DNA of 64,000 bases from an uncultured Halobacteriales archaeon (GTDB lineage: Archaea; Thermoplasmatota; E2; JACPAO01; JAHFTW01): contig CAZXUC010000018.1 of NCBI GenBank assembly GCA_964643795.1, positions 2,238 through 66,237 of the forward strand, written 5' to 3'. The notes under the pieces were generated by a model. The model did not search any database, was not told the origin of the DNA, and worked only from the letters and a program-made list of their open reading frames with translations. Position 1 is the first letter of the stretch. Every line of letters starts with the position of its first letter. The position numbers and the translations under genes are program-made. Shown here piece by piece: positions 1 through 38,642 of the stretch.

Positions 1-597
1 GACCGGCAACACGGAGTCGAGCATAGGCTGGGTTGGGTCCTCGACGTTGACGACGTGGATGCAGACGGAGCAAGCGCCCAATCCGTCCGGCGCCTCGGCG
101 CCAGGCCGCTGTTGCACGTTGAGCACCGCGTGGCGTCCATCGGGGGTGACGCGGACTTCCTGGAATCCAGAGCCGGGGGCACGATAACTTCCCAGGGGCT
201 TGATGTTGAGTGGGTCAGTGATGTCGGCGATGTTGAACCCGCCGTCGTCGTCGCCGTCGATGGCCACGAATGCCAGCGTCTTGTCGCCCGCCTCGTGCAG
301 CACGAAGTTCGCGAACCCGTTCTCCCCAAGCGTCACTCCAAGACTGGACCAGGCGACGAAGTCGATGTTGAAGGACTGCGTGTGCAGGTTCGCGTCGTTG
401 TGGTCGTGGTCCATTTCGATGGGAGCACCAATCAAGATGTCGATGACGTCGTGCAGGATGTTTCCGTCAAGGTCGACTTGGACGTTCGTCACGTGGTCCT
501 TACGATTGTCGCCTGGGCCCGGAGACGAAAGGCAACCCGCGAGGACCAGTCCGGCCGCCAACACTAGAATCCGGCGCACGACGCACCAGGAGAGCAC
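1..597 (-). CDS. Secreted lipoprotein, 3' end runs off the window. GTG start; signal peptide with lipobox LAGC.
   Basis: Reverse-strand frame is open from 597 down to 1 (translation read by hand, no stops seen; VLSWCVVRRILVLAAGLVLAGCLSSPGPGD...). Not in the ORF track, which lists no ORFs running off the window. D-rich repeats of the NIADITDPLNIKPLG type. Confidence 0.45.
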   Translation of the reverse strand, partial: MLSWCVVRRILVLAAGLVLAGCLSSPGPGDNRKDHVTNVQVDLDGNILHDVIDILIGAPIEMDHDHNDANLHTQSFNIDFVAWSSLGVTLGENGFANFVLHEAGDKTLAFVAIDGDDDGGFNIADITDPLNIKPLGSYRAPGSGFQEVRVTPDGRHAVLNVQQRPGAEAPDGLGACSVCIHVVNVEDPTQPMLDSVLPV

Positions 598-7563: not shown

Positions 7564-7983
7564 CGAACGAAAGCACCGGAGCGCATCCCACCGGGCGCGC
7601 TCCCACATGGAACCGGGACCGGTTTCCGGTCCGTCTCGAGGTCGAAAACAGGGGGAGATTCGAACCCATACCTGGGGGGATTCGACCCCACCCACGAGCT
7701 GGAATTGCGGCGATGCAGTTCCAGGTTCTGCCGCCATGTCAGCGCGACGACATGCTCGCGGACTGCATCGACGCGAACCTCAAGGCAGGTCGCGCCGGCT
7801 CCTACGTCGTGTTGTACAAGAAGACAGCCGCGTCGGGGCTCGACTGGAAAGGCCATCCGGGATATTTGGCGGCGGCACCTGCCTTTGTCGCTAGCAGGCC
7901 CGCACCAATCCCCTCGGAAAACCACGAAACGAATCAGGAGGCATCAGCTTCAAAGCGCCCAGACCAGTCTCCGCCAGGATTCG

Positions 7984-8400
7984 ATGGCCCATACCTGGGA
8001 TGCCCATGTGGCGGAATACGTCGACTCGCCCAGCATGGTGCACCGCATCAAGGTCGGCTCCATCGTGGCAGCACGCATCCACGGCACCTTGGGCACGTAC
8101 AGGGTCCAAGTCGACACCAAGCCGAAGAAAGGCGGTGACTGCACGTGTCCCTCGGAAATCCAGCCGTGCAAGCACGTTGAGGCCCTGCGCCAGACGTGGA
8201 AGAAGAAGCCCGGTTCGTTTGCGGACGTAGACGAGTTGCTCGCGTTGGCACTCAAGGGCCGGACGAGGGCAGATCTCGTCCAGATGAGGAGGAGCATGGC
8301 GTTGGCCAGCCCATCGTCGTTGTCGGCGCTGGGCGCAGTTGGATTCGACGAGGTGGCGCCATGGGACGAGGAGGACCCGGAGGGGTACTTCGAGGAATGA
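7984..8400 (+). CDS. SWIM zinc-finger domain protein.
   Basis: CxC...CxH SWIM signature (DCTCPSEIQPCKHVEAL). ATG at 7984 in ORF 7705..8400. Its stop overlaps the next start (ATGA). Confidence 0.7.
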   Translation: MAHTWDAHVAEYVDSPSMVHRIKVGSIVAARIHGTLGTYRVQVDTKPKKGGDCTCPSEIQPCKHVEALRQTWKKKPGSFADVDELLALALKGRTRADLVQMRRSMALASPSSLSALGAVGFDEVAPWDEEDPEGYFEE

Positions 8401-8726
8401 CGCCCGCCACGAAGGCCATCAGTCCCAAGCGGCTTGCGGCGCTCATCGAGGAGGCCTGCGTCGATGCCTACAACGAGTCCGAGCAGGAGAGCGGATTCTT
8501 TTGCATGATGGAGGAACACCTTTTGGTTCCCTTCACGGCATTCGTCGTTGGAGAAGCGGTCGAGGTGACGGGGTTCGACCTGGCCGACCGCGGCATCAAG
8601 GCAATCGTGAAGCACAACAAGCAGAGCCCCCGCGTCCACCTGCTGGACCTCGATTTCGGTGACAAGCCGCCCAAGGGCATTGAGTGGGTCGAGGCCTACC
8701 GCCGCTGGGCTGACGGCGTGGGGTAG
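8397..8726 (+). CDS. Hypothetical protein translationally coupled to the SWIM gene.
   Basis: ATG at 8397 overlaps the TGA of the upstream gene. 109 aa (MTPATKAISPKRLAALIEEACVDAY...). Confidence 0.55.
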   Translation: MTPATKAISPKRLAALIEEACVDAYNESEQESGFFCMMEEHLLVPFTAFVVGEAVEVTGFDLADRGIKAIVKHNKQSPRVHLLDLDFGDKPPKGIEWVEAYRRWADGVG

Positions 8727-8923
8727 GAGCCTGGGCGCGCCGTGCGCCCGGACCGCCGGGTACCGGCCCCTATGGCACTATTTAAAGACGGCCCTGCCGG
8801 CTCCTGTAGAACGTGTTTGCAAAGACCTATTGCCAGCCGCGCCGCATTACCAACCAACACATTGCTTCGACCTAGGCTAACCTTGAAGTCAAGGCTTCCC
8901 TGCGAGAATCCTACCGAGGACGT

Positions 8924-9586
8924 GTGACAAACTCCATGCCCATCGACGTTCCACCGCAGTTCCGGCCTTCCCTCGATGTGCTGGGCACTCTAGGGGAGGT
9001 GAAATGGAGGAAGTTCACCGGCGTATTGTCCAAAGCCAAGGCCGCGTACAGCCCAAGTGGAATGGTCGCCCCAATTGCAGATGCACTTGGAAGCACGAAA
9101 GAGGACGCCGGCAAACTTCTCACGCTCGTTTTGAACACGTATGGCGATGCAGAGCAGCTAGGTATGGCCCATGAGGCGGCGGCGCGCGAAGTGGCTGGCC
9201 TAGCCCCTAGCCATGCCAAGTGGAACGCGAAGGAGCGGAAACGCCTAGTCGACCGGCTACAGGATTTGTATGACGACAAGTATTCCTTGGGCGTCACGGC
9301 CAAGGCCTTGTCCGTTCTACTGGACGTTGACCGGAGCTATTGCTCGTCGCGCGTACTGACCGACGCCAGGCCAATTTTCAGAGGAGTCGAGGATCCCCGT
9401 CCCTCCGCGATGGCTGTGATACACACGTTGAGAATCACCGCCCATGTTGATGACAAGATGACGGATTTCTACGTCACGCTCACTCCGCGACAACTCGACG
9501 CATTGACAGCCGACGTACGCCGAGCTCGCACAAAGGAACGGAACCTCATGAAGGCAATCACGGAATTGCCTTGGTTGCAAGAGTGA
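8924..9586 (+). CDS. Hypothetical protein, first gene of the low-GC island.
   Basis: ORF of 220 aa in a region whose sampled GC is 45-58%, against 66-68% in the flanks. Confidence 0.5.
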   Translation: MTNSMPIDVPPQFRPSLDVLGTLGEVKWRKFTGVLSKAKAAYSPSGMVAPIADALGSTKEDAGKLLTLVLNTYGDAEQLGMAHEAAAREVAGLAPSHAKWNAKERKRLVDRLQDLYDDKYSLGVTAKALSVLLDVDRSYCSSRVLTDARPIFRGVEDPRPSAMAVIHTLRITAHVDDKMTDFYVTLTPRQLDALTADVRRARTKERNLMKAITELPWLQE

Positions 9587-9591
9587 TTGAC

Positions 9592-10218
9592 ATGCCTGTG
9601 GAAATTCACGTTGTGGAAAATGGCAAGGATTCCAAGTCAGCCAAAGAAACCAGACTTCGGCAATGGAACAAGGCGGAATGCTTCGCCTACCCAACCGAGT
9701 CGCATAGCGAGGTCGACCGCCGCGCCGCGAGCCACGCGATTGAAGACGCGCTCCTTCGTCGGTATTCTATCATTTTCTCCCGTCTGCAACCGAAGGAAAC
9801 GGAAACGCGAGATTGGTCGGCAGATTTTGCTCATCACGCGGTCGGCTGGACGCACGACGACATCGAGGGTTTCGTCTCTCCGTACAAGAGCATGCTGGAG
9901 TTGAAAGAGGGGTGGGACGGGGAACGGGCGCCGCGAATCGCACGGCGCACCTTCACCAAGGCCAAGGACCTCCTCTCGGTCCTGGTAAGCGCGTTGGACC
10001 AGCGGCACAAGACGCTCTGCGCACCTGAACTGCATGCCACGCGGCGAGGCGACATCGACATGATGTGGGCGAAAGAGGATTCCTTTCTGGTAATCACGGT
10101 CGCTGCCGAGGCGAGCGATCCATACTGGGTCCTCGGTAGCCGGAAGGGCGCGAAGGCCCATAACCAGCTCGACGTTTCGGATGTCGATCCCCTGATTCTG
10201 GAATACATCGGCCGCTAG
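9592..10218 (+). CDS. Hypothetical protein, second gene of the low-GC island.
   Basis: ATG at 9592, 5 nt after the upstream stop. ORF 9571..10218. Confidence 0.5.
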   Translation: MPVEIHVVENGKDSKSAKETRLRQWNKAECFAYPTESHSEVDRRAASHAIEDALLRRYSIIFSRLQPKETETRDWSADFAHHAVGWTHDDIEGFVSPYKSMLELKEGWDGERAPRIARRTFTKAKDLLSVLVSALDQRHKTLCAPELHATRRGDIDMMWAKEDSFLVITVAAEASDPYWVLGSRKGAKAHNQLDVSDVDPLILEYIGR

Positions 10219-10226
10219 GTTTCGGG

Positions 10227-10727
10227 ATGACCGCGCTTGATCTGCAGGACTGCTTGTTCCATCGGTACGTTGCACCAGCTAGCAAAAAAGATGCCCCGCG
10301 GACCAACTGGCCATGGCCTTCAATGAGCACTTTCAAGGTCGACCCTGATGGAGTGTCGTTCGACGACGGCAGAACATGGGATGCAAACCACGTTCGAGCC
10401 CACATTGGGACGCTGCCGCAGGTCAAGGATCCTTCCAAGGCGCGAGACGCGGACACCTATGGATTGACCGTGATTTCCCGCAAGAGACTGGCCCAACATT
10501 TCAAACGGGCCTACAAAATCAGGCGCAAGCCGACGAAGGCTGTAGGGAACATGCCAGCCAATCCTGCCCATACCCTGGTGGTGCCGCCGATTGGCTATCA
10601 CGAGACCCTTGTTCGCTCAGACCTTTGGACCGTTTCTCAGGGCTACGAACCGCCGCCCACGCTGAAGATTCCGGACTCGGCATGGGCGCGTTGGGAAGAC
10701 ATTGCCTTCAAGCGAGCAGCCAACTGA
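10227..10727 (+). CDS. Hypothetical protein, third gene of the low-GC island.
   Basis: 166-aa ORF, 8 nt after the upstream stop. Confidence 0.5.
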   Translation: MTALDLQDCLFHRYVAPASKKDAPRTNWPWPSMSTFKVDPDGVSFDDGRTWDANHVRAHIGTLPQVKDPSKARDADTYGLTVISRKRLAQHFKRAYKIRRKPTKAVGNMPANPAHTLVVPPIGYHETLVRSDLWTVSQGYEPPPTLKIPDSAWARWEDIAFKRAAN

Positions 10728-10790
10728 GTTATCCTGAGTCCGTGGCTCGGTGGTCGCGGGGCGTAGGCTGAGCGACCTCGCCACACGAAA

Positions 10791-11204
10791 GTGAATCGAG
10801 GCTGGACCCACGACTTTAAGAAGCATCATTACCCATGGGTAACTATGTGGCCGAACGAGTACGACTCGAACCATGAGTACCAGTTGGCCCTCGAAATCCG
10901 TGGCCGAGGCGCCACAAGGCAACTCAAAGCCCTCGTGGCCCTGATGGGCCACGCCTTGAGCCGCCCGGAATTGGCCAAGCGCATCCAAGGCAAGGGTTCG
11001 CCCGCCACCGTGACGAAGACCATTCGCGGCCTGGACAACAAGGGCCTCGTCCGCCTGGGCCTGATGGCGGACCTCAAGACGCAACGCATCGAGTTGTCCG
11101 CCCTGGGCGCCCGAGTCCTGCTCGTTAGCCAGCAGCTGCTTCCTGATGCGTACCGCCTGGAAGTCACGCATCGCGCGATGCATCAGCCCTCGGCCAAGAC
11201 TTGA
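10791..11204 (+). CDS. Winged-helix (MarR-like) transcriptional regulator.
   Basis: HTH-like stretch SPATVTKTIRGLDNKGLVRLG. Last gene of the low-GC island. Confidence 0.5.
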   Translation: MNRGWTHDFKKHHYPWVTMWPNEYDSNHEYQLALEIRGRGATRQLKALVALMGHALSRPELAKRIQGKGSPATVTKTIRGLDNKGLVRLGLMADLKTQRIELSALGARVLLVSQQLLPDAYRLEVTHRAMHQPSAKT

Positions 11205-11312
11205 GCGACCAAATCTACGAGGACTTCCAACCCAACCGCGCGTAAGGCAAGCAGAAGCGTCGTGAGAAAACGGCAAGGGCGGCTTCAAGAGCGCCACTCC
11301 GCTCGGCGACAC

Positions 11313-12122
11313 GTGGAGCTTCCGCTCTTCCACGTCGACGCGTTCACGGACAAACCGTTCGGCGGCAATACGGCGAGCGTCTGCCTCTTGCCCGGCGGCG
11401 TACGGCCGAAGGATTCCTGGATGCAATCCGTCGCGCTCGAGATGAACCACTCCGAGACGGCGTTCGTGCAACCGGAGCCCGGCGGCTTCCATCTGCGCTG
11501 GTTCACGCCCGCGAAAGAAGTGGACCTGTGCGGGCATGCCACGCTTGCGAGTTCCCACGTGCTGTGGCAGGAGGGCATCGTGCGCAAGGACCAACCCGTC
11601 AAGTTCCGCACGCTGAACGGCACGCTCACGTGCCGCTCCACGCCGACCGGGATTGCGATGGATTTCCCCGCCGACAAGGCGAAACCCGCCAAGGCGCCGG
11701 CGGGCCTGTGGTCCGCTCTCGGCATCACGCCCGCGAAAATCCTCCGCGACCGCCTGGATTTCCTCATCACCCTGGAGGACGAGGCAGCCGTGCACAAGAT
11801 CGCACCCGACTTTTCGGCGCTGCGCAAGATATCGCAGGTCCGCGGGTTCATCGCCACAGCACCCGCCAAGGCGAAGGACGACTACGTGTGCCGTTACTTC
11901 GCGCCGGCCTTCGGCATCGACGAGGACCCCGCGACTGGCTCAATCCAATGCACACTTGGCCCCTATTGGTCCAAGAAACTCGGGAAGCAGGAACTGACGA
12001 TGCGCCAACTCTCGAGGCGCGGGGGCGCTATGCGCGTCCGGCCAGAAGGTGCTGGCGTCATCTTGACCGGGAACGCCGTGACGACAATGAAAGGGACACT
12101 GACGGCGTCGGCTCAGCCGTAG
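11313..12122 (+). CDS. PhzF-family phenazine-biosynthesis-like isomerase.
   Basis: ELPLFHVDAFTDKPFGGNTASV is a PhzF N-terminal signature. A GTG start at 11313 is preferred over the ORF start at 11262. Confidence 0.85.
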   Translation: MELPLFHVDAFTDKPFGGNTASVCLLPGGVRPKDSWMQSVALEMNHSETAFVQPEPGGFHLRWFTPAKEVDLCGHATLASSHVLWQEGIVRKDQPVKFRTLNGTLTCRSTPTGIAMDFPADKAKPAKAPAGLWSALGITPAKILRDRLDFLITLEDEAAVHKIAPDFSALRKISQVRGFIATAPAKAKDDYVCRYFAPAFGIDEDPATGSIQCTLGPYWSKKLGKQELTMRQLSRRGGAMRVRPEGAGVILTGNAVTTMKGTLTASAQP

Positions 12123-12442
12123 CCGTGGAACGACGCGTCGACGGAGATGCCCAAACTGCTCGTGTATGCGACATGCTCCAGTCGTGCCGCGAGCGCCTCG
12201 ACTTGGTCGAGGACTTTGGCGACTTCGGGGTCGCTGAGGCGGTAGAATTGGTTTCGCCCGGCGCGGCGCACGGCGACGAGGCCCGCGTCGCGCAGTGTGC
12301 CGAGGTGGTGGCTGACGTTGCTCTGTTCGTCCGCCAACTTGGTGACCAGGTCGTTCACCGTCTTCTCGCCTTGGCGCAGCGCGTCGAGGATGGCGTGGCG
12401 CGTCTCCTCGCTTACCAGACGAAGGAGTGCCACCGAATCCAT
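12113..12442 (-). CDS. ArsR/SmtB-family metalloregulator.
   Basis: 109 aa, HTH (TVNDLVTKLADEQSNVSHHLGTLRDAGLV). Downstream of and co-oriented with the ZIP transporter. Confidence 0.85.
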   Translation of the reverse strand: MDSVALLRLVSEETRHAILDALRQGEKTVNDLVTKLADEQSNVSHHLGTLRDAGLVAVRRAGRNQFYRLSDPEVAKVLDQVEALAARLEHVAYTSSLGISVDASFHGYG

Positions 12443-12515
12443 GGTGACGCAGGGCCCGGCACGGTCTTGGAGGTTGCGCTGTGACCGACGGACGACCCCA
12501 CGCCAGCCTGTCTGG

Positions 12516-12577
12516 CCGCGGAATCAAGGAATCCAGGGAACCTGGTTTCCCCTGATTCCGTGGATTCCGCGGCTCGG
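12516..12577. repeat. Palindromic repeat R-E, copy 1 (CCGCGGAATC...GATTCCGCGGCTCGG).
   Basis: Near-identical ends shared with 32166..32211. Internal GGAATCC/CCTGG palindrome. Confidence 0.6.
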
Positions 12578-12597: not shown

Positions 12598-13428
12598 TCA
12601 ATGCGTGTGGCCCGCTTCCCCGCCGCCGAGTATTCCCGCTTCTTCCAGCGCGAGGACGCCGTACATCAGGCCGAGGCCGATGACGAAGAAGAACAGGATG
12701 GCCCACGCGTCGCGCCCCTTCGTGTGATGGTGCAACTCGGGGATCAAGTCGGCGGCCGCGATGTAGACGAAGGCGCCGGCGATGAGCGGCAGACCGAACA
12801 TCTCGATGGTCTCCGGGTCGACGGGCAAGGCGAGGACGATGACCGCGCCGAGGACCGCGAGCAGGGCGGAGCCGAAGTTGAACATCAGGGCGCGCGCCCG
12901 GGACATGCCCGCACGCAGGAGGACCGCGAAGTCGCCGAGTTCTTGGGGCACTTCGTGGATGACGACGGCGATTGTTGTGGCCACGCCGACGGCCGAGTCG
13001 ACGAGGAAGGCCGTCGCGATGACTGCGCCGTCGAGGAAGTTGTGGATAGCATCCCCAATGAGGTTGGTCCATGCATACGGGGCGACCACGCCGGCTTTGC
13101 CGGCATGGTCGTGCATGTGGTGGGCTTCGTCGACGCGCTCAACGTGGGCGTGACGGGAGCGCAGGCCGACCTCCAGCGCAAAGAAGACGAGGAACCCGCC
13201 GACGATCCACAGTCCCATCGTCGCGAGGCCGATGTCATCCCAGAGGTGGGTGGCCTCTGGCAGCACGTGGAAGAACGAGTCTCCCACAAGCGTCCCGGCC
13301 GCGACGGCGACGAGGGCAAGCAGGAAGCGGTGGCTGCGGAGGCCGGGCACGCTGAGGGCCAACGCGCCGAGGAGGCTGACGATGCTCACGACCGAGACGG
13401 CGAGGAGCGTGCTGACCCAGGGGTCCAT
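12598..13428 (-). CDS. ZIP-family zinc/iron permease (ZupT-like).
   Basis: Multi-TM protein with HNFLDG and HEVPQELGDF motifs. Confidence 0.9.
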   Translation of the reverse strand: MDPWVSTLLAVSVVSIVSLLGALALSVPGLRSHRFLLALVAVAAGTLVGDSFFHVLPEATHLWDDIGLATMGLWIVGGFLVFFALEVGLRSRHAHVERVDEAHHMHDHAGKAGVVAPYAWTNLIGDAIHNFLDGAVIATAFLVDSAVGVATTIAVVIHEVPQELGDFAVLLRAGMSRARALMFNFGSALLAVLGAVIVLALPVDPETIEMFGLPLIAGAFVYIAAADLIPELHHHTKGRDAWAILFFFVIGLGLMYGVLALEEAGILGGGEAGHTH

Positions 13429-13500: not shown

Positions 13501-13881
13501 ATGCCCGTCGTGAGCCTGAGCCTCCCCGCCGACCTATGCGAGACGATGGACGGCGCCATCGCCGAGGGCAACTACAAGGGCCGCAGCGAATTCGCAAGGG
13601 CAGCAATCCGCGACCACTTGCAGGGCCGGCAACGGCTTGCGGGGAAACATCTGCACGGCTCCATCACCGTCCTGTATCCCCACGACAAGGAGGCGCGCAT
13701 CTCCGACGTGAGGCACGCCTTCCACGACGTCGTCTTGAGCCTCATGCACACCCACTGCGAAACCGAGACCTGCATGGACGTCTTGATTGTTGGAGGACCG
13801 CCGCACAGGATCGAGGGGCTGCGGGACACGCTGGAGAGGATGAGGGACGTTACGCGGAGCAAGCTCGTGGTGATGGCGTGA
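13501..13881 (+). CDS. nikR: NikR-like nickel-responsive regulator (ribbon-helix-helix plus metal-binding domain).
   Basis: N-terminal RHH (CETMDGAIAEGNYKGRSEFARAAIRDHL). C-terminal His/Cys cluster (HTHCETETC). Confidence 0.8.
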   Translation: MPVVSLSLPADLCETMDGAIAEGNYKGRSEFARAAIRDHLQGRQRLAGKHLHGSITVLYPHDKEARISDVRHAFHDVVLSLMHTHCETETCMDVLIVGGPPHRIEGLRDTLERMRDVTRSKLVVMA

Positions 13882-29006: not shown

Positions 29007-30605
29007 CTACTGCCGCAGCGCCCGCACGTCGTCGAGGATGGTCCGCACCGCCATCTCTTGCACGTTGCGCATCGCGGCGTCGACTTTGTAGCCGAGGATG
29101 TCCTGGCCGCGCAGCAACCCACTGAGGCGCTTGCGGTTGTAGTCCAACGCCTCCGTTGGAACCACTTGGTCAAGGATTCCGGCCGCGTCGGCGAGACCGA
29201 GGAGCAAAATCGTTGCGGCGTCCGGTGTGCCGCCGCCCGCGATGGCTCGCCGGAGGCGGTTGCGTAAGCGCTCCTGCGCGGTCGGATTCGTGACGGCGAA
29301 CGTCGAGCGGCGGAAGATGCCCATGTGCTTCCATTCGCGGGCCTCGGCGAGTCCTTTGCCGACGAGGCTTGCTTTACTGGCTCGGATGAGTCCGGGCAGT
29401 TCGCTGCCAAGGCTCTTCATCGCATCGCGGCTCGTCGTGTCCTTCATGACGCTCAACTTGTTGAGAAGCGGCGCTAGGCGGGGCGTTCCGTTGCCTTGCA
29501 CGATGAAGCGGTCGCGCTGCACCTGAAGGGCGCCGTGGTGGACGGCTTCGAGGAGAAGCGCACCAAGGAGCGCGCCGCCGACGCCGCCGGACGCCACTTT
29601 TTCGCCGCGCTCATCCCAGATTCCTTCCGCGGCGAGCAGGAGGAATGCTTCGGGGATCGGTTGCTCCGAACTGGATTTCGTCGCCTCTTCGTCGTGGACC
29701 TGAACCATCGAACCGTTGTCGCCCGAGTCGGCATCGGCGTCGGGTGAACGCCCGCGACCCTTGCGCGAGGTCCCGTCGTCATCGCGCGCGTCGGGGGCAG
29801 CATCAAGTGAGTCTAGGACGACCGGCTTGGCGCGCCGCTTCTCCAGTTCAGCGACCCAGTCGGTATTCTTGCCGGCGGCCGCGGCCTGCGTCTTCTTTGC
29901 GGGCTCGCCTTTCTTGGCCGTCTCCTTCGCGATTTCCGGCTCGAGTTTGCGGCGGTGGCCATTGGTGGGAGCGGGCTTCACTGCGACGGCCGGCTCGGAC
30001 GGCACGACTTCCGGTTCCGCTGGAGGGGAGTCTACCTCGATTGTGTTGGCGGCCTTGCCATGCAGCGCGGGTTCAGGTTTCGCGTCGACGACTGGCTTGG
30101 CCTTGGCTTGCTTGGCTGCCGCCTTCTTCGCCGCCTTTGCAGCCTTTGCCTCGGTCTTGCGCAGTTTCTTGGCGGCCTTCTCGTGCGACGCCTTCAGTTT
30201 CTTCGCCGCCTTTGCCTCCGCTGCGAGCTTCTTCTTGGCGGCCTTTGCTTCAGTCGCCTTGAGTTGCTTGGCGGCCTTGGCGTTCGTCGCCTTGTGCTTC
30301 TCGGCTGCGGCCGCGTCCACGGCCTTGTGCGCCTGCGCGGCATGGGCGTCGGTGTCCTTGTGCGCCTGCACCGGATCCGAGGATTTCGCATGGGCAGGCT
30401 TCGCCTTGGCGGCCTTGGCTTTCGCCTTCGTCGCCTTCGGGCTCGAACTCTGCTTGGCGGCTTTGGCCGGTTTGGCGGCCTTCGCGGGCTTGTGCGCTTT
30501 CGGCTCCGTTTTCGCAGCCAGGTGGGGTTTGGCCTTGGCCTTGGCGTCCTTCTTCGCGGCTTCCGCCTTCTGCTTCATCGCTGCCTTCTGGGTGCGCGTC
30601 GCCAT
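29007..30605 (-). CDS. Lys/Ala-rich (histone-H1-like) N-terminal region fused to a C-terminal GPP34/GOLPH3-like domain.
   Basis: About 200 aa of KAAK/AKAK repeats. The C-terminal segment LLLAAEGIWDERGEKVASGGVGGALLGALLLE... resembles GPP34 (PF05719). Confidence 0.75.
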   Translation of the reverse strand: MATRTQKAAMKQKAEAAKKDAKAKAKPHLAAKTEPKAHKPAKAAKPAKAAKQSSSPKATKAKAKAAKAKPAHAKSSDPVQAHKDTDAHAAQAHKAVDAAAAEKHKATNAKAAKQLKATEAKAAKKKLAAEAKAAKKLKASHEKAAKKLRKTEAKAAKAAKKAAAKQAKAKPVVDAKPEPALHGKAANTIEVDSPPAEPEVVPSEPAVAVKPAPTNGHRRKLEPEIAKETAKKGEPAKKTQAAAAGKNTDWVAELEKRRAKPVVLDSLDAAPDARDDDGTSRKGRGRSPDADADSGDNGSMVQVHDEEATKSSSEQPIPEAFLLLAAEGIWDERGEKVASGGVGGALLGALLLEAVHHGALQVQRDRFIVQGNGTPRLAPLLNKLSVMKDTTSRDAMKSLGSELPGLIRASKASLVGKGLAEAREWKHMGIFRRSTFAVTNPTAQERLRNRLRRAIAGGGTPDAATILLLGLADAAGILDQVVPTEALDYNRKRLSGLLRGQDILGYKVDAAMRNVQEMAVRTILDDVRALRQ

Positions 30606-34914: not shown

Positions 34915-35071
34915 GAGGGGGCGACGGCCTTGGGGCTAGTAGGTTTGCCGCACGGCGCCCCGCGGGGAGTGCGAGCAGATTCCATTGAACGCGGCCCCTT
35001 CCCGGGGCCAAATCCGGCGGCACTCTTTTCTAGGTCCACGCCTCCCAAGGGACCCGTTCCTGGAAATTCGC

Positions 35072-37804
35072 ATGGTGGATGAAACAAACGAACCAGGCCC
35101 CGAACGCACCCTATTCAAGCGCACTCGGCGCGACCCGTTGCGGGGGCACCCCATCGAAGACCCTCACGGGGTCGAGGCCGCCCTCACGAAGGGCACGTTC
35201 GCTCCCCTGGAAATGCATCAACTCAACCTGCGCGCCCACCGTTTGCGCGCCATGCGGCATGAAGGCATCACGACGTTGCCGCAACTGCGCCGCAAGATTC
35301 GCATCCTGCCCCACCAAGTGAAGGCAGCCATCAAGATCCTCAACCAGATGCAGGGCCGTGGCATCCTCGCCGACGAAGTCGGTCTCGGGAAGACCATCGA
35401 GGCGGGCATCGTCATGAAGGAACTCGTCGCCCGCGGCAAGGCCAAGACCATCCTCGTCCTCACGCCCGCGTCGCTTGCTGCCCAATGGCAGGAGGAACTT
35501 TGGAACAAGTTCGGTGAGCGCTTCATCAAGCACGATGACATGGAATTCAAGGGCTTCTCCAAGCACGACCGTATCGTGGCTTCGATTGATACCGCCAAGT
35601 CAGCGCAGCATTATCCCGACATCATCGGCCGCGAATGGGACTTGTGCATCATCGACGAGGCGCATTACCTCAAGAACAAGAAGACGCAGCGTTACTCGCT
35701 TGCGGACGACATCACGGCCCGCCACGCTTTGATGCTCACGGCGACGCCCATCCAGAACAACCTCATCGAATTGTACAACCTCATCAACCTCATCAAACCG
35801 GGCCTACTGGGCACGATGCAGAATTTTGAGGAAGAGTACATCGGTGATGCGCAGGGGCGAGTCCTGCTTCACGCGACGCGGCTGCAGACGTTGCTCAAGC
35901 AGGTGCTCATCCGGAACCGTCGCTCCGAGACCGGCCTCAAATTCCCGGAACGCAAGGTCGAGACGAACCGCGTCCAAGCCTCCAAGGGCGAATACGAACT
36001 GCATCAGGCCGTATCGAACTTCATCCGCAACTACAAGCAATTCTTCGATTCGCATCTCGCGTTGATGGTGTTGGAACGTGAAGTGGCGTCTTCCGCCCCC
36101 GCCCTAGCAAAAACGCTGGGGAACATGCTGCCCAAGGTGCACGACCCTGAAGTCGCCAAGGCAATGGAGGACCTCAAGCACCTGGCCGACTCCATCAAGC
36201 GCAATGCTAAGGTCAACCTCATCGTCGACATCGCGAAGGGTACGAAGGAGAAGATGATCGTCTTCACGCAGTTCCGCGAGACGCAGGAATTGCTTGCGCG
36301 CCGCCTCAAGCTGGAGGGCATCGAGAACGTCAAGTTCCACGGCCAACTCACGCCCGGCCGCCGCCGCAAGGCGCTCGAAGAGTTTCGTGACCAGGACATC
36401 CAGGTCCTTGTCGCCACCGACTCCGGGTCCGAAGGCTTGAACTTGCAATTCTGCCACATCATGATCAATTATGATTTGCCGTGGAACCCGATGCGCGTCG
36501 AGCAACGCATCGGCCGCGTCCACCGCATCGGCCAAGAGTCGAGCAACGTCATCATCCTAAACTTGGCCGTCGCCAACACCATCGAGGACTACGTGTTGCA
36601 GGTCCTCTACGAGAAGATCAAACTATTCGAGGTCGCGATTGGTGAAATGGACCTCATCCTGAGCGACATCAACGAGGAAGGTGGCCTGGAGAAGCGCATC
36701 CTCGACATCATCCTTGAGACGAAGAACGACGAAGAGGTCCGCGACTCGCTGCAGAAGGTCGAGCGCGACGTCAAGAAGTCGAAGGAACAGGCCGAGGAGA
36801 TCAAGATGCTCGACGCATCCGTGTTCCAACAGTTCGACCTATCGACCGCGAAGGATGACGTCAAGATTGAGGACTCGGTTGACTTGGAGGCCGAAGTGCA
36901 GGATTTCGTCTCCTCGTTCCTGCGGGCAGCCTCGGGTGAAGTCGAAGTGACGGACCACATCACGACGGTCAAGCTCCCGCGCAGCTACTGGAAAAAACTC
37001 GGCGGCCTGCACACCTACACGACGGACGCGGAGACGTTCGAGGACCGCGACGGCGAAGTCGAACTCCTCAGCCTCGGCTCCAAGTTCGTGCAAGGCGTCA
37101 TGGACGTTCTGCAAGGGGAAGGTTCGGTGGGCGAAATCCGCACGGACCAAATCGATGCTCCCGTGACGCAGCTCTACTACCGCTACTTCATCGAGACGCT
37201 GCGCAGCGAAATGGAGGCCTTCGTGACGATTCACATCGCCGATGATGGCTCGCTACTCAAGGTTCAGGAAGACCTGGCCGAGGTCCCGGACGGGACGCCA
37301 GCGGCCTCGGCGCATGCCATCACGGCGGCCGAGTGGACCGAGATGCAGGAGAAGGCCCGCTTCGAAGTGGGAAACCTCCTCGTGCCTCTCTTGCAGAAGA
37401 AGCGCGAAGAGGCCGGCGAAGAGATCCGCCGCACAGAGAAACGACTCGAGCACTACTACGAGGGGCTCAAGGAGGAAATCCGCGGCGACGAGGCAAAGAT
37501 TCGCCGCAAGATGGGCGACATCCGCAACCGCCTATGGTTCACGGAGAACGGCGTCCGCGAACGCAAACTCGAGGAGCAATACCAGCAGCTCGAGGCGCAA
37601 CTGCACGATTTGACGTTCAAGAACAACCGCCGCGTCGAAGAACTCGACAAGGAATTGAAGGACCGCCTAGTACGCGAGCACGAGAAGAACGAGCCTCGCC
37701 TCATCGTCGAACTCATCGGCGCGACGCGCTTGGTCCCCGCGGCAGGGAGTGTCCGCGTGGCGGCGACGGCACGGTCACGTGAGGTCGCGGCCGTCGCCGC
37801 CTAA
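35072..37804 (+). CDS. SNF2-family DEAD/DEAH helicase with a C-terminal coiled-coil region.
   Basis: Motif I VGLGKT, motif II DEAH, helicase-C motifs. ATG at 35072 in ORF 34985..37804. Confidence 0.9.
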   Translation: MVDETNEPGPERTLFKRTRRDPLRGHPIEDPHGVEAALTKGTFAPLEMHQLNLRAHRLRAMRHEGITTLPQLRRKIRILPHQVKAAIKILNQMQGRGILADEVGLGKTIEAGIVMKELVARGKAKTILVLTPASLAAQWQEELWNKFGERFIKHDDMEFKGFSKHDRIVASIDTAKSAQHYPDIIGREWDLCIIDEAHYLKNKKTQRYSLADDITARHALMLTATPIQNNLIELYNLINLIKPGLLGTMQNFEEEYIGDAQGRVLLHATRLQTLLKQVLIRNRRSETGLKFPERKVETNRVQASKGEYELHQAVSNFIRNYKQFFDSHLALMVLEREVASSAPALAKTLGNMLPKVHDPEVAKAMEDLKHLADSIKRNAKVNLIVDIAKGTKEKMIVFTQFRETQELLARRLKLEGIENVKFHGQLTPGRRRKALEEFRDQDIQVLVATDSGSEGLNLQFCHIMINYDLPWNPMRVEQRIGRVHRIGQESSNVIILNLAVANTIEDYVLQVLYEKIKLFEVAIGEMDLILSDINEEGGLEKRILDIILETKNDEEVRDSLQKVERDVKKSKEQAEEIKMLDASVFQQFDLSTAKDDVKIEDSVDLEAEVQDFVSSFLRAASGEVEVTDHITTVKLPRSYWKKLGGLHTYTTDAETFEDRDGEVELLSLGSKFVQGVMDVLQGEGSVGEIRTDQIDAPVTQLYYRYFIETLRSEMEAFVTIHIADDGSLLKVQEDLAEVPDGTPAASAHAITAAEWTEMQEKARFEVGNLLVPLLQKKREEAGEEIRRTEKRLEHYYEGLKEEIRGDEAKIRRKMGDIRNRLWFTENGVRERKLEEQYQQLEAQLHDLTFKNNRRVEELDKELKDRLVREHEKNEPRLIVELIGATRLVPAAGSVRVAATARSREVAAVAA

Positions 37805-38553: not shown

Positions 38554-38558
38554 GTCAG

Positions 38559-38642
38559 TGCAGAGGCCAGGATTCGAACCTGAGAACCACGAAGGACTGG
38601 ATCCTAAGTCCAGCGCCTTTGACCAGACTTGGCTACCTCTGC
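38559..38642 (-). tRNA. tRNA-Leu, anticodon TAG, long variable arm.
   Basis: Reverse complement folds as GCAGAGG acceptor / CTTAGGA anticodon loop (TAG) / long variable arm / GGTTCGAATCC T-arm / CCTCTGC-A. No encoded CCA. Confidence 0.85.

What the first reader, a model, noticed from the sequence alone, without database searches (positions are those of the whole stretch)
8727..11260. Low-GC four-gene island of unknown function ending in a winged-helix regulator
Sampled 60-nt blocks here give about 45-58% GC, against 66-68% in the flanking genes. The region holds four tightly spaced or overlapping co-directional ORFs: three proteins (220, 208 and 166 aa) with no family I can recognise, then a MarR-like wHTH protein. 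It sits between a SWIM-finger operon and a PhzF gene. The compositional break and the unknown content suggest a horizontally acquired module, for example a defence, toxin-antitoxin-like or provirus-remnant cassette.
Basis: partly seen in the sequence, partly recalled or inferred. Interest (0 to 1): 0.6.

Follow-up and report, generated by a model that had tools for sequence, protein, structure and literature searches.

The report
COMMD-like ring protein three-gene cassette
The low-GC patch is a 1.8-kb, horizontally moved three-gene cassette whose first gene encodes a prokaryotic relative of the eukaryotic COMMD (Commander) ring proteins, and comparison with relatives shows this gene always leads a tight operon with two swappable partner genes (sometimes toxin-type enzymes), which gives a testable clue to a protein family whose function in prokaryotes is unknown.

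Summary
The compositional dip is real but about half as deep as reported: 59.0% GC against a 64.5% window mean. GC3 is 0.65-0.70 against 0.81 +/- 0.07.

The unit has three genes, not four. A related contig (L002) shares exactly window 8935-10735, from the orf1 ATG to the orf3 stop, at 68% nucleotide identity, with unrelated flanks. The wHTH-like orf4 has host-like GC3 and occurs elsewhere without the cassette.

Orf1 is not an unknown. It is a prokaryotic COMMD-like protein: a profile hits PDB 9q6a at E 2.6e-37, and the top 20 Foldseek hits are all COMMD or COMMD-like. Published work (2026) shows these proteins form 8-10-mer rings and states that their prokaryotic function is unknown.

The new point is the gene context. 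In 19 of 19 non-redundant loci with enough DNA, the COMMD-like gene is followed within -41 to +23 nt by a second gene, and in 15 of 15 by a third. The partner pairs swap between unrelated families: DUF7689 (invariant Cys and two His), Fic, and orf2/orf3-type. Contexts vary and include IS elements, a primase, a ParE module, a prophage tail gene and housekeeping genes.

Most likely this is a tripartite toxin-antitoxin-like or defence-like module scaffolded by a COMMD ring. That function is inferred, not shown. Orf2 and orf3 are near-orphans, and the orf3 fold could not be modelled.

The parts
8727..8935 (+). Intergenic leader upstream of the cassette. It holds an A/T-rich TTTAAA element at 8781-8786 that could be an archaeal TATA box (inference). 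The region is not conserved with the related cassette in L002.
   Evidence: The sequence was read directly. The blastn similarity to L002 starts only at 8935. No sigma-70-like promoter was found.
8936..9586 (+). orf1: prokaryotic COMMD-like protein. It is 216 aa from the ATG at 8936, or 220 aa from an alternative GTG at 8924. It has a helical HN domain followed by a C-terminal COMM domain (three strands and a long helix). Family-conserved residues: invariant D147, R149 and H167; at least 90% conserved K127, A128, R143, T146, P150, P160, L169, R200, A201 and K204.
   Evidence: A profile of 48 relatives hits PDB 9q6a (COMMD-like MBK5214510) at E 2.6e-37 over the full length. Orf1 alone hits it at E 2.1e-6. 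The AF2 model has pLDDT 72 and the HN+COMM topology. The top 20 Foldseek PDB hits are all COMMD-like or COMMD, with the best at E 6e-9. The family has 4801 50%-identity clusters at E<=1e-3.
9592..10218 (+). orf2: 208-aa acidic protein (pI 6.1) with no known family. Its C-terminal half (about residues 90-190) belongs to a family ('g2B') that occupies the second position of COMMD-like cassettes in other loci. It is the putative adaptor or neutraliser (inferred).
   Evidence: Only one homologue was found among 5.8 billion proteins: P0011, 61% identical, in L002. An iterated HMM and alignment A3 link it to the second genes of L003, L009 and L025/26, with invariant W108, D109, G153, I155, D156 and W159. 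L034 was assigned to the same family by eye only. There is a weak hit to PADLOC PDC-M32A at E 0.005, and the L003 relative hits the same profile region at E 0.0024. Pfam, PHROGs, NCBIfam and PDB give nothing.
10227..10727 (+). orf3: 166-aa basic protein (pI 9.7), a near-orphan. It sits in the third, effector position of the cassette. It is possibly a diverged relative of the 121-132-aa third genes ('g3B') of type-B cassettes. Its activity is unknown.
   Evidence: There is one homologue only: P0012, 70% identical, in L002. There are no Pfam, PADLOC, PHROGs, NCBIfam or PDB hits. The AF2 model failed with pLDDT 35. It shares collinear short motifs with g3B (D-LF-R, G-x-S, IS, AHT-V, VR--L), but hhalign gives E 0.37, which is not significant.
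10845..11204 (+). orf4: neighbouring small basic protein with a possible wHTH. It is 119 aa as called in the public record, or 137 aa from a GTG at 10791. It is judged NOT to be part of the cassette.
   Evidence: Its GC3 is 0.78, which is host-like. It has no counterpart next to the L002 cassette. L033 carries it at 92.5% nucleotide identity with different flanks and no cassette. The HTH evidence is sub-threshold: LexA_DNA_bind at E 0.022, Fe_dep_repress at E 0.025 and PDB 4fx0 at E 0.022.

Best explanation
Window 8936-10727 is a self-contained, horizontally mobile three-gene operon. It probably sits in an archaeal genome.

Gene 1 encodes a prokaryotic COMMD-like protein. Solved homologues of this protein assemble into homo-octameric or homo-decameric rings through intertwined COMM-domain dimers, with the helical HN domains pointing outward.

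In every relative sampled, this gene leads the same tight three-gene layout. The pair of downstream genes is exchanged between unrelated families:
- g2A plus DUF7689, which has an invariant Cys and two invariant His (Cys-His hydrolase-like by eye).
- A small protein plus a Fic AMP-transferase-type enzyme.
- g2B plus g3B.
- In this window, a g2B-type orf2 plus the orphan orf3.

I infer that the ring is the constant scaffold, sensor or chaperone of a tripartite toxin-antitoxin-like or abortive-defence-like module. Gene 3 (orf3, basic) would be the effector. Gene 2 (orf2, acidic) would be its cognate adaptor or neutraliser that couples it to the ring.

What is shown: the family assignment of orf1, the operon layout and its conservation, partner swapping, the cassette boundaries and its mobility. 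What is inferred: ring formation by this particular protein, physical interaction between the three products, toxicity of orf3, and any role in defence.
For: COMMD-like identity of orf1:
- A 48-sequence profile hits PDB 9q6a at E 2.6e-37, and human COMMD7 appears at E 0.41.
- The single sequence hits 9q6a at E 2.1e-6.
- The AF2 topology has 6-7 helices followed by three strands and a long helix.
- The top 20 Foldseek hits are all COMMD-like or COMMD.
- Ring assembly of homologues is experimental (PMC13392464).

Operon layout:
- The gaps are 5 and 8 nt.
- In 19 of 19 non-redundant loci with at least 300 nt downstream, a co-directional gene 2 starts -41 to +23 nt from the COMMD stop.
- In 13 of 13 loci with at least 1.2 kb downstream, plus two further contigs, a co-directional gene 3 follows.
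- L034 shows the same layout.

Partner swapping:
- Clusters g2A, g2B, g3A and g3B show no detectable homology to each other.
- Gene 3 is DUF7689 at E 1e-26 to 1e-33, with invariant C37, H125 and H147.
- In another type, gene 3 is Fic with the motif HPYVNGNGHIGR (E 5.8e-5; it also hits PADLOC SoFic and PDC-S04).
- The Fic-type COMMD protein nests inside the DUF7689-type clade in a rough NJ tree.

Mobility:
- blastn against L002 gives a single HSP, window 8935-10735, at 68% identity, with unrelated flanks.
- GC3 is low here, and the L002 copy lies in a roughly 9-kb low-GC island.
- Contexts elsewhere include IS66, IS1595, Prim-Pol/DUF3987, a ParE module, ThiF/E2 genes and a phage tape-measure gene. 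Some copies lie between aconitase and isocitrate dehydrogenase or beside ValRS.
- Distribution is extremely patchy: orf2 and orf3 each have one homologue in 5.8 billion proteins.
Against: - No protein of the window cassette has a recognisable toxin, nuclease, antitoxin or DNA-binding domain.
- No PADLOC defence model matches significantly. The COMMD family itself has zero PADLOC hits.
- The orf3 fold could not be predicted, and its link to g3B is not statistically supported.
- The charge pattern (acidic gene 2, basic gene 3) holds for types W, B and C but not for type A.
- The published study could not predict complexes between COMMD-like proteins and their neighbours in Myxococcota, Chlamydia or Haloarcula.
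- The loci sampled are biased. Most were found through the R[VM]LTDARP motif of one subfamily, plus a handful of top-scoring representatives. Generality across all COMMD-like proteins is untested.
- No relatives were found in viral contigs or in the plasmid and phage collections.
Confidence: 0.5

Rival explanations
1. The COMMD-like cassette is a non-conflict accessory complex. The ring and its two partners would form a structural or regulatory assembly, for example one associated with membrane, nucleic acid or protein quality control, that is not toxic and has nothing to do with defence or addiction.
For: The window proteins carry no toxin or defence signature. Eukaryotic COMMD rings are scaffolds rather than parts of toxin systems, and the published work leaves the prokaryotic function open. 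Several cassettes lie between housekeeping genes.
Against: The partner genes are replaced by unrelated families while the layout is kept. One partner type is Fic, a classical toxin or effector enzyme that here lacks an evident inhibitory [ST]xxxE[GN] helix by eye. Distribution is extremely patchy, and the cassettes are linked to low GC, IS elements, a primase and a prophage. All of this is typical of conflict modules, not of conserved cellular machinery.
Confidence: 0.25
2. It is a secretion-linked effector module. As proposed for Myxococcota, where COMMD-like genes sit in VgrG/PAAR/DUF2169 (T6SS-like) islands, the ring would act as an adaptor or chaperone for an exported toxin (gene 3). Gene 2 would be the immunity or adaptor protein.
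For: A published synteny analysis links Myxococcota COMMD-like genes to T6SS-type injection machinery. T6SS islands typically encode adaptor-effector-immunity sets, and the third genes include enzyme-like domains.
Against: No VgrG, PAAR or DUF2169 gene and no other secretion gene was seen near any of the loci examined here. The host here is probably an archaeon, and T6SS is not known in archaea. Orf1-3 have no hydrophobic segment or signal-like N-terminus. The gene order (putative neutraliser before effector) is the reverse of typical polymorphic toxin-immunity pairs.
Confidence: 0.1
3. One reading: a four-gene island (three unknowns plus a MarR-like regulator that controls them), possibly a provirus remnant.
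For: All four ORFs are co-directional and close together. Orf4 has weak wHTH-type hits. One related cassette lies beside a phage tape-measure gene.
Against: Orf4 has host-like GC3. It is not next to the cassette in L002. It occurs at 92.5% nucleotide identity without the cassette in L033. No integrase, tRNA or flanking repeats lie at this site. No viral homologue of orf1 was found.
Confidence: 0.07

Closest known systems
Prokaryotic COMMD-like proteins (e.g. MBK5214510 of a Flavobacteriaceae bacterium, PDB 9q6a/9q6c/9q6d; Liu et al., Nat Commun 2026, PMC13392464; Asgard homologues in PMC12962969)
   Same: The domain plan is the same full-length HN + COMM arrangement, at about 220 aa. There is significant sequence and fold similarity. 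Orf1 keeps the conserved core motif (R143-x-L-T146-D147-x-R149-P150 and H167-T-L169) found across the 48-sequence family alignment.
   Different: The papers report single genes of unknown function. They report a T6SS-like context in Myxococcota only and do not describe a three-gene operon or toxin-type partners. Here the gene leads a conserved tripartite cassette. Ring formation by orf1 itself was not tested.
Eukaryotic COMMD1-10 heterodecameric ring of the Commander/CCC complex (PDB 8f2r, 8p0w)
   Same: The fold is the same, with Foldseek E 1e-5 to 8e-4 and probability 1.00. It offers the idea of a ring that scaffolds partner proteins.
   Different: Sequence identity is only about 10-15%. The eukaryotic ring is built from ten paralogues and binds CCDC22/CCDC93, which have no prokaryotic homologues. 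Nothing links the cassette to membrane trafficking.
Tripartite toxin-antitoxin systems (e.g. toxin-antitoxin-chaperone, TAC) and type II TA modules (named from my own knowledge)
   Same: The genes are small, tightly spaced or overlapping and co-directional. The distribution is patchy and horizontally mobile. The partner pairs are modular and swappable. A Fic-type enzyme sits in one variant.
   Different: No component is homologous to a known toxin, antitoxin or SecB-like chaperone in the window cassette. There is no DNA-binding antitoxin domain. The constant component is a COMMD ring, which is unknown in TA biology. Toxicity is untested.
Fic/Doc toxins and Fic-based defence candidates (FicT/FicA from my own knowledge; PADLOC SoFic and PDC-S04)
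   Same: The third gene of the L004/L005 cassette has the Fic motif HPYVNGNGHIGR and hits Pfam Fic and PADLOC SoFic/PDC-S04.
   Different: This applies to a sister cassette, not to the window. Window orf3 has no Fic motif.
PADLOC candidate system PDC-M32 (protein A)
   Same: Orf2 and its L003 relative both align weakly to the same C-terminal part of the PDC-M32A profile (E 0.005 and 0.0024).
   Different: The scores are far below significance, only about 45-100 residues align, and no other PDC-M32 component matches. It is a lead, not a membership.

Membership tests
Prokaryotic COMMD-like protein family (orf1) | N-terminal all-helical HN domain of about six helices | tested here: met
   The AF2 model has helices at 15-22, 25-36, 44-55, 59-79, 83-91 and 102-114 (plus 126-133). 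pLDDT is about 62-90 (mostly 77-90) over residues 1-120.
Prokaryotic COMMD-like protein family (orf1) | C-terminal COMM domain: a three-stranded antiparallel sheet followed by an extended helix | tested here: met
   Strands lie at 139-152, 160-175 and 178-186, and the helix at 188-213. Foldseek matches COMM domains, including the isolated Commd9 COMM domain 6bp6. pLDDT is lower here (62-72), as expected for a monomer model of an obligate intertwined dimer (inference).
Prokaryotic COMMD-like protein family (orf1) | Significant sequence similarity to an experimentally characterised member | tested here: met
   The hit to 9q6a_A has E 2.1e-6 for the single sequence (residues 101-211) and E 2.6e-37 for the family profile over the full length.
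Prokaryotic COMMD-like protein family (orf1) | Assembly into homo-octameric or homo-decameric rings through COMM-domain dimers | not testable with these tools
   No multimer prediction or experiment was available. Ring assembly is shown only for homologues in PMC13392464.
Eukaryotic Commander complex | Co-occurrence with CCDC22, CCDC93 and Retriever subunits | not tested
   PMC13392464 reports that these subunits have no prokaryotic homologues. The window was not searched for them. Orf1 works like a COMMD ring subunit at most and is not part of a Commander complex.
Type II or tripartite toxin-antitoxin module | Small adjacent co-directional genes forming one operon, patchily distributed and mobile | tested here: met
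   The gaps are 5 and 8 nt. The layout is conserved in all sampled loci. The cassette sits in different contexts.
Type II or tripartite toxin-antitoxin module | One gene encodes a recognisable toxin domain | tested here: not met
   Window orf1-3 have no significant Pfam, PADLOC, PHROGs, NCBIfam or PDB hit to any toxin family. Only sister cassettes carry Fic or the hydrolase-like DUF7689.
Type II or tripartite toxin-antitoxin module | Antitoxin with a DNA-binding domain that autoregulates the operon | tested here: not met
   No HTH, RHH or AbrB-type domain was detected in orf1-3. The adjacent wHTH-like orf4 is not linked to the cassette.
Type II or tripartite toxin-antitoxin module | Toxicity of one product that is neutralised by another | not testable with these tools
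   This needs expression experiments.
Known or candidate anti-phage defence systems (PADLOC-DB v2) | Significant match of the components to a system's HMMs | tested here: not met
   The best hits are orf2 to PDC-M32A at E 0.005 and orf4 to CARF_TM/Csa3 wHTH at E 0.004-0.03. The COMMD family has 0 of 48 members with a hit.
MarR-type winged-helix regulator (orf4) | Match to a wHTH family at the curated threshold | tested here: inconclusive
   LexA_DNA_bind scores 15.0 bits (cut-off 23.7) and Fe_dep_repress 15.2 bits (cut-off 26). No MarR model was hit. PDB 4fx0, a 'probable transcriptional repressor', hits at E 0.022.

The most novel reading that the evidence does not exclude
COMMD-like rings are the constant core of a previously undescribed, widespread family of tripartite conflict systems (toxin-antitoxin or anti-virus type) in bacteria and archaea. 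In these systems exchangeable adaptor/effector pairs (Fic, DUF7689, g3B/orf3-type) dock onto the ring. If so, the eukaryotic Commander scaffold would descend from a prokaryotic immune or addiction module. That would join the list of eukaryotic cell-biology parts with roots in prokaryotic conflict systems.
Probability: 0.35. Interest if true: 0.85.

Novelty: new variant of a known kind. Interest (0 to 1): 0.62.

Why it matters
Two 2026 papers established that COMMD proteins, the ring at the heart of the eukaryotic Commander trafficking complex, have bacterial and archaeal relatives that form the same rings. Both state that the prokaryotic function is unknown.

The analysis here adds a concrete genomic handle, at least for one large subfamily. 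The gene is the invariant first member of a mobile three-gene operon. Its two partners are swapped as pairs and include toxin-type enzymes.

That turns "function obscure" into a testable hypothesis: a ring-scaffolded toxin/defence module. It also nominates small, clonable cassettes for experiments, namely the window's archaeal one and the DUF7689 and Fic types.

For annotation of this window, it replaces "three unknown ORFs plus a regulator" with a defined 1.8-kb mobile cassette and a separate neighbouring gene.

Tried and rejected
- Domain searches: Pfam, PADLOC, PHROGs and NCBIfam scans of orf1-4 found nothing significant for orf1-3.
- Orf3 structure: the AF2 model from a two-sequence alignment had pLDDT 35 and was unusable, so no fold search was run on it.
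- Partner relationships: profile-profile comparison between the partner-gene clusters found no relationships. The comparison of orf3 with g3B gave collinear motifs but E 0.37, so I do not claim homology.
- Partner structures: PDB profile searches for orf2/g2B, orf3 and DUF7689 found nothing.
- HEPN reading: by eye, the truncated third genes of L027 and L030 looked HEPN-like. Pfam did not confirm this, so I dropped it.
- Mobile-element collections: searches of viral contigs, phage records, plasmid records and BFVD structures for COMMD-like or DUF7689 relatives gave no matches.
- Insertion signatures: there are no flanking direct or inverted repeats, no tRNA and no integrase at the window cassette. 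No sigma-70 promoter was found, and terminator-like sites were no more frequent than in shuffled sequence.
- Charge pattern: the acidic-antitoxin/basic-toxin pattern is not consistent across cassette types.
- Synteny in close relatives: P0163, the protein from the other NCBI genome, was not retrievable. The genome-collection scan did not contain the window's own species.
- Broad alignment scan: alignment A2 was too diverse for a metagenome scan.
- Organism identity: it could be narrowed only to "probably archaeal". The support is an archaeal-type LeuRS, a related cassette beside Rpb4/L21e/DUF655 genes, and an orf4 relative beside an HVO_A0114-type HTH gene.
Full report
**Observation**

The window is 64.5% GC overall. 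The flagged stretch 8727-11260 is 59.0%, the lowest 2.5-kb stretch in the window (0.65% of windows are as low; sd 2.4%). In 300-nt windows it runs 52-62%, against 62-67% in the flanks.

Codon position 3 is more telling. Fifty-one putative genes of the window average GC3 0.806 +/- 0.067. Orf1, orf2 and orf3 have 0.665, 0.704 and 0.653, while orf4 has 0.783 and PhzF 0.819. The four ORFs exist as described, with gaps of 5 nt between orf1 and orf2 and 8 nt between orf2 and orf3. The gap before orf4 is 63-117 nt, depending on its start. The public record calls orf4 from the ATG at 10845 (119 aa).

**Limits of the unit**

A 29-kb metagenomic contig (L002) carries homologues of orf1, orf2 and orf3 (76%, 61% and 70% amino-acid identity) in the same order. 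blastn gives one HSP, window 8935-10735 = L002 6630-8415, at 68% identity, and nothing in the flanks. The similarity runs exactly from the orf1 ATG to just past the orf3 stop.

In L002 the trio lies in a roughly 9-kb low-GC island (GC3 0.49-0.71) between genes with GC3 0.73-0.93. Archaeal marker genes (Rpb4, L21e, DUF655) lie nearby.

Orf4 is not next to the L002 trio. Conversely, contig L033 carries orf4 at 92.5% nucleotide identity with different neighbours and no cassette. The island is therefore three genes, and the wHTH-like gene is a separate neighbour. Its HTH assignment rests only on sub-threshold hits.

No tRNA, integrase or flanking repeats mark the site. The host is probably an archaeon. 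It has an archaeal-type LeuRS, L002 has an archaeal context, and an HVO_A0114-type gene sits beside the orf4 relative. This is not proven.

**What orf1 is**

Direct family scans found nothing, and the word-indexed search found only seven relatives. A profile of those seven, run against 1.84 billion cluster representatives, found 4801 proteins at E<=1e-3 and 948 at E<=1e-30. Nearly all are about 225 aa.

- A 48-sequence profile hits PDB 9q6a, 'COMMD-like protein MBK5214510', at E 2.6e-37 over the full length. Human COMMD7 appears at E 0.41.
- Orf1 alone hits 9q6a at E 2.1e-6.
- The AF2 model (pLDDT 72) shows six to seven N-terminal helices, then three long strands and a long helix. This is the HN + COMM plan.
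- All of the top 20 Foldseek PDB hits are bacterial COMMD-like or human COMMD chains, with the best at E 6e-9.
- The family has invariant D147, R149 and H167, inside a conserved R-x-L-T-D-x-R-P and H-T-L core.

Liu et al. (Nat Commun 2026, PMC13392464) showed experimentally that such proteins form homo-octamer and homo-decamer rings. They state that the prokaryotic function is unknown and found only a T6SS-like context in Myxococcota. Koestlbacher et al. (PMC12962969) report Asgard homologues, also without a function. Neither toxins nor Fic appear in the Liu paper's text, and the sections read describe no three-gene operon.

**What orf2 and orf3 are**

Each has a single homologue among 5.8 billion proteins, the one in L002. 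All three cassette proteins are soluble. Orf2 is acidic (pI 6.1) and orf3 is basic (pI 9.7).

The C-terminal half of orf2 belongs to a family I call g2B. It holds the second position in COMMD-like cassettes of L003, L009, L025/26 and L034 (the last assigned by eye). Invariant residues include W108, D109, G153, I155, D156 and W159. Orf2 and the L003 member both touch the same part of the PADLOC PDC-M32A profile, but only at E 0.005 and 0.0024.

Orf3 has no hit anywhere, and its AF2 model failed at pLDDT 35. It shares a collinear string of short motifs with the 121-132-aa third genes of the g2B cassettes. hhalign gives E 0.37, so this is only suggestive.

**Neighbourhoods of relatives**

I collected loci from genome, metagenome and assembly collections, called ORFs and clustered the neighbours. 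There are 22 non-redundant COMMD-like loci at the 90% level.

- All 19 loci with at least 300 nt downstream have a co-directional second gene starting -41 to +23 nt from the COMMD stop.
- All 13 loci with at least 1.2 kb downstream, plus the two contigs, have a co-directional third gene.
- L034 adds one more example.

The partners fall into unrelated sets:

- Type A: g2A plus DUF7689 (PF24738, E 1e-26 to 1e-33). DUF7689 has an invariant Cys in an N-C-I-x-W context and two invariant His. By eye this suggests a Cys-His hydrolase.
- Type B: g2B plus g3B.
- Type W: g2B-type orf2 plus orf3 (the window and L002).
- Type C: a 129-151-aa protein plus a Fic enzyme with the motif HPYVNGNGHIGR.
- At least four further second-gene types lie on short contigs.

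In a rough NJ tree the COMMD sequences mostly group by cassette type, and the Fic type nests inside the type-A clade. This suggests partner replacement on a conserved backbone.

The surrounding genes differ from locus to locus. They include aconitase and isocitrate dehydrogenase, ValRS, an IS66 transposase, an IS1595 transposase, a Prim-Pol/DUF3987 primase, a ParE module, ThiF plus a prokaryotic E2, and a phage tape-measure gene. In this window they are LeuRS, PurA and PhzF.

**Most likely mechanism**

Shown:

- The cassette is a constant ring-forming scaffold protein encoded first.
- It is followed by two tightly coupled genes that are exchanged as pairs.
- The whole unit moves between genomes and contexts.

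Inferred:

- The ring holds or senses, gene 2 adapts or neutralises, and gene 3 is the effector. This would be a tripartite toxin-antitoxin-like or abortive-defence-like module.

The inference rests on the architecture, on the Fic and hydrolase-like third genes in sister cassettes, on the patchy distribution and on the mobile contexts. It is not supported by any recognisable toxin, antitoxin or defence domain in the window's own proteins, nor by any PADLOC match. The published attempt to predict complexes between COMMD-like proteins and their neighbours failed in other clades. I put this reading at about 0.5.

Rivals:

- A non-conflict accessory complex, about 0.25.
- A secretion-linked adaptor/effector set, as suggested for Myxococcota, about 0.1. 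No secretion genes were seen near any locus here, and the host is probably archaeal.

**Comparison and novelty**

Orf1 meets every testable membership criterion of the prokaryotic COMMD-like family. Ring assembly could not be tested. The cassette fails the membership tests for known TA families and known defence systems, so it can only be said to look like them in layout.

The COMMD-like family is already published. The conserved three-gene operon with swappable, partly toxin-type partners is not in the two papers I could read, and searches for DUF7689 or for COMM-domain conflict systems found nothing. I therefore rate it a new variant of a known kind, with a substantial chance of being a new class of conflict system.

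**Limits**

- The loci sampled come mainly from one motif-defined subfamily, plus a handful of high-scoring representatives.
- Start codons of neighbour ORFs are mechanical calls.
- The tree is unsupported.
- No interaction or phenotype data exist.
- The empty-site test in a close relative could not be run.

Noticed in passing
window 34985-37804 (+), with tRNA-Leu at 38558-38642 (-): This is the second-lowest GC stretch of the window (57-60% at 35-37 kb). It is a 939-aa SNF2-type helicase with partial hits to DISARM DrmD, DpdE and ZorD-type defence helicases, all far below their cut-offs. Its GC3 is host-like (0.81), so the dip comes from amino-acid composition rather than codon usage. A tRNA-Leu lies about 750 nt downstream.
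   Followed up: partly
window 29007-30605 (-): A 532-aa ORF has a C-terminal GPP34 (Golgi phosphoprotein 3) domain at E 7e-20. This is another eukaryote-associated domain family in a probably archaeal contig.
   Followed up: no
window 12515-12573: A near-perfect 24-nt inverted repeat (79% complementary, 11-nt loop) lies between the ArsR-family gene (12113-12442, -) and the probable metal-transporter gene (12598-13428, -). It could be an operator or terminator of a metal-response locus. A NikR-like gene lies at 13501-13881.
   Followed up: no
L002 3046-12346: In the related archaeal contig the COMMD cassette lies in a roughly 9-kb low-GC island. On the opposite strand sits a four-gene operon (436, 180 and 121 aa, then a 261-aa RNase_T-type exonuclease). 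Several further unknown genes follow, including a 526-aa protein and a Zn-ribbon protein. This may be a variable or defence island.
   Followed up: partly
L003 7362-10339: A type-B COMMD cassette lies next to ThiF (E1-like) and Prok-E2_E genes, with small unknown genes and an HTH_3 regulator. This is a ubiquitin-like conjugation set of the kind seen in conflict islands.
   Followed up: no
L034 3384-5160 and 6211-8433: A type-B cassette sits about 1 kb from a 740-aa phage tape-measure gene (PhageMin_Tail) on the opposite strand, so some cassettes may ride on prophages. The COMMD-like protein here has a roughly 60-aa N-terminal extension, but that may just be an over-long gene call.
   Followed up: partly
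L033 1382-1760 versus window 11176/11173: The close relative of orf4 is followed by a roughly 380-nt insertion (part of a 146-aa gene) that is absent from the window. About 75 nt then match window 11173-11246. After that come DUF7718 and HVO_A0114-type HTH genes instead of PhzF. The orf4 neighbourhood is itself variable.
   Followed up: partly
L006 11182-11769, L021 1276-1923 and L024 6939-7583 (DUF7689 genes): Several DUF7689 third genes end in Trp/Leu-rich hydrophobic tails after the conserved Y-M-K-R motif. These could be a membrane anchor or simply ORF over-extension. This was not resolved.
   Followed up: no
window 7705-8726: The upstream 'SWIM operon' consists of a SWIM-like gene (public call 7984-8400, 138 aa; Pfam SWIM at 18.1 bits, below the 19.6 cut-off) overlapping a CcbP-like calcium-binding-domain gene (8361-8726; PF11535, E 1e-6). 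SWIM plus CcbP is an unusual pairing.
   Followed up: no
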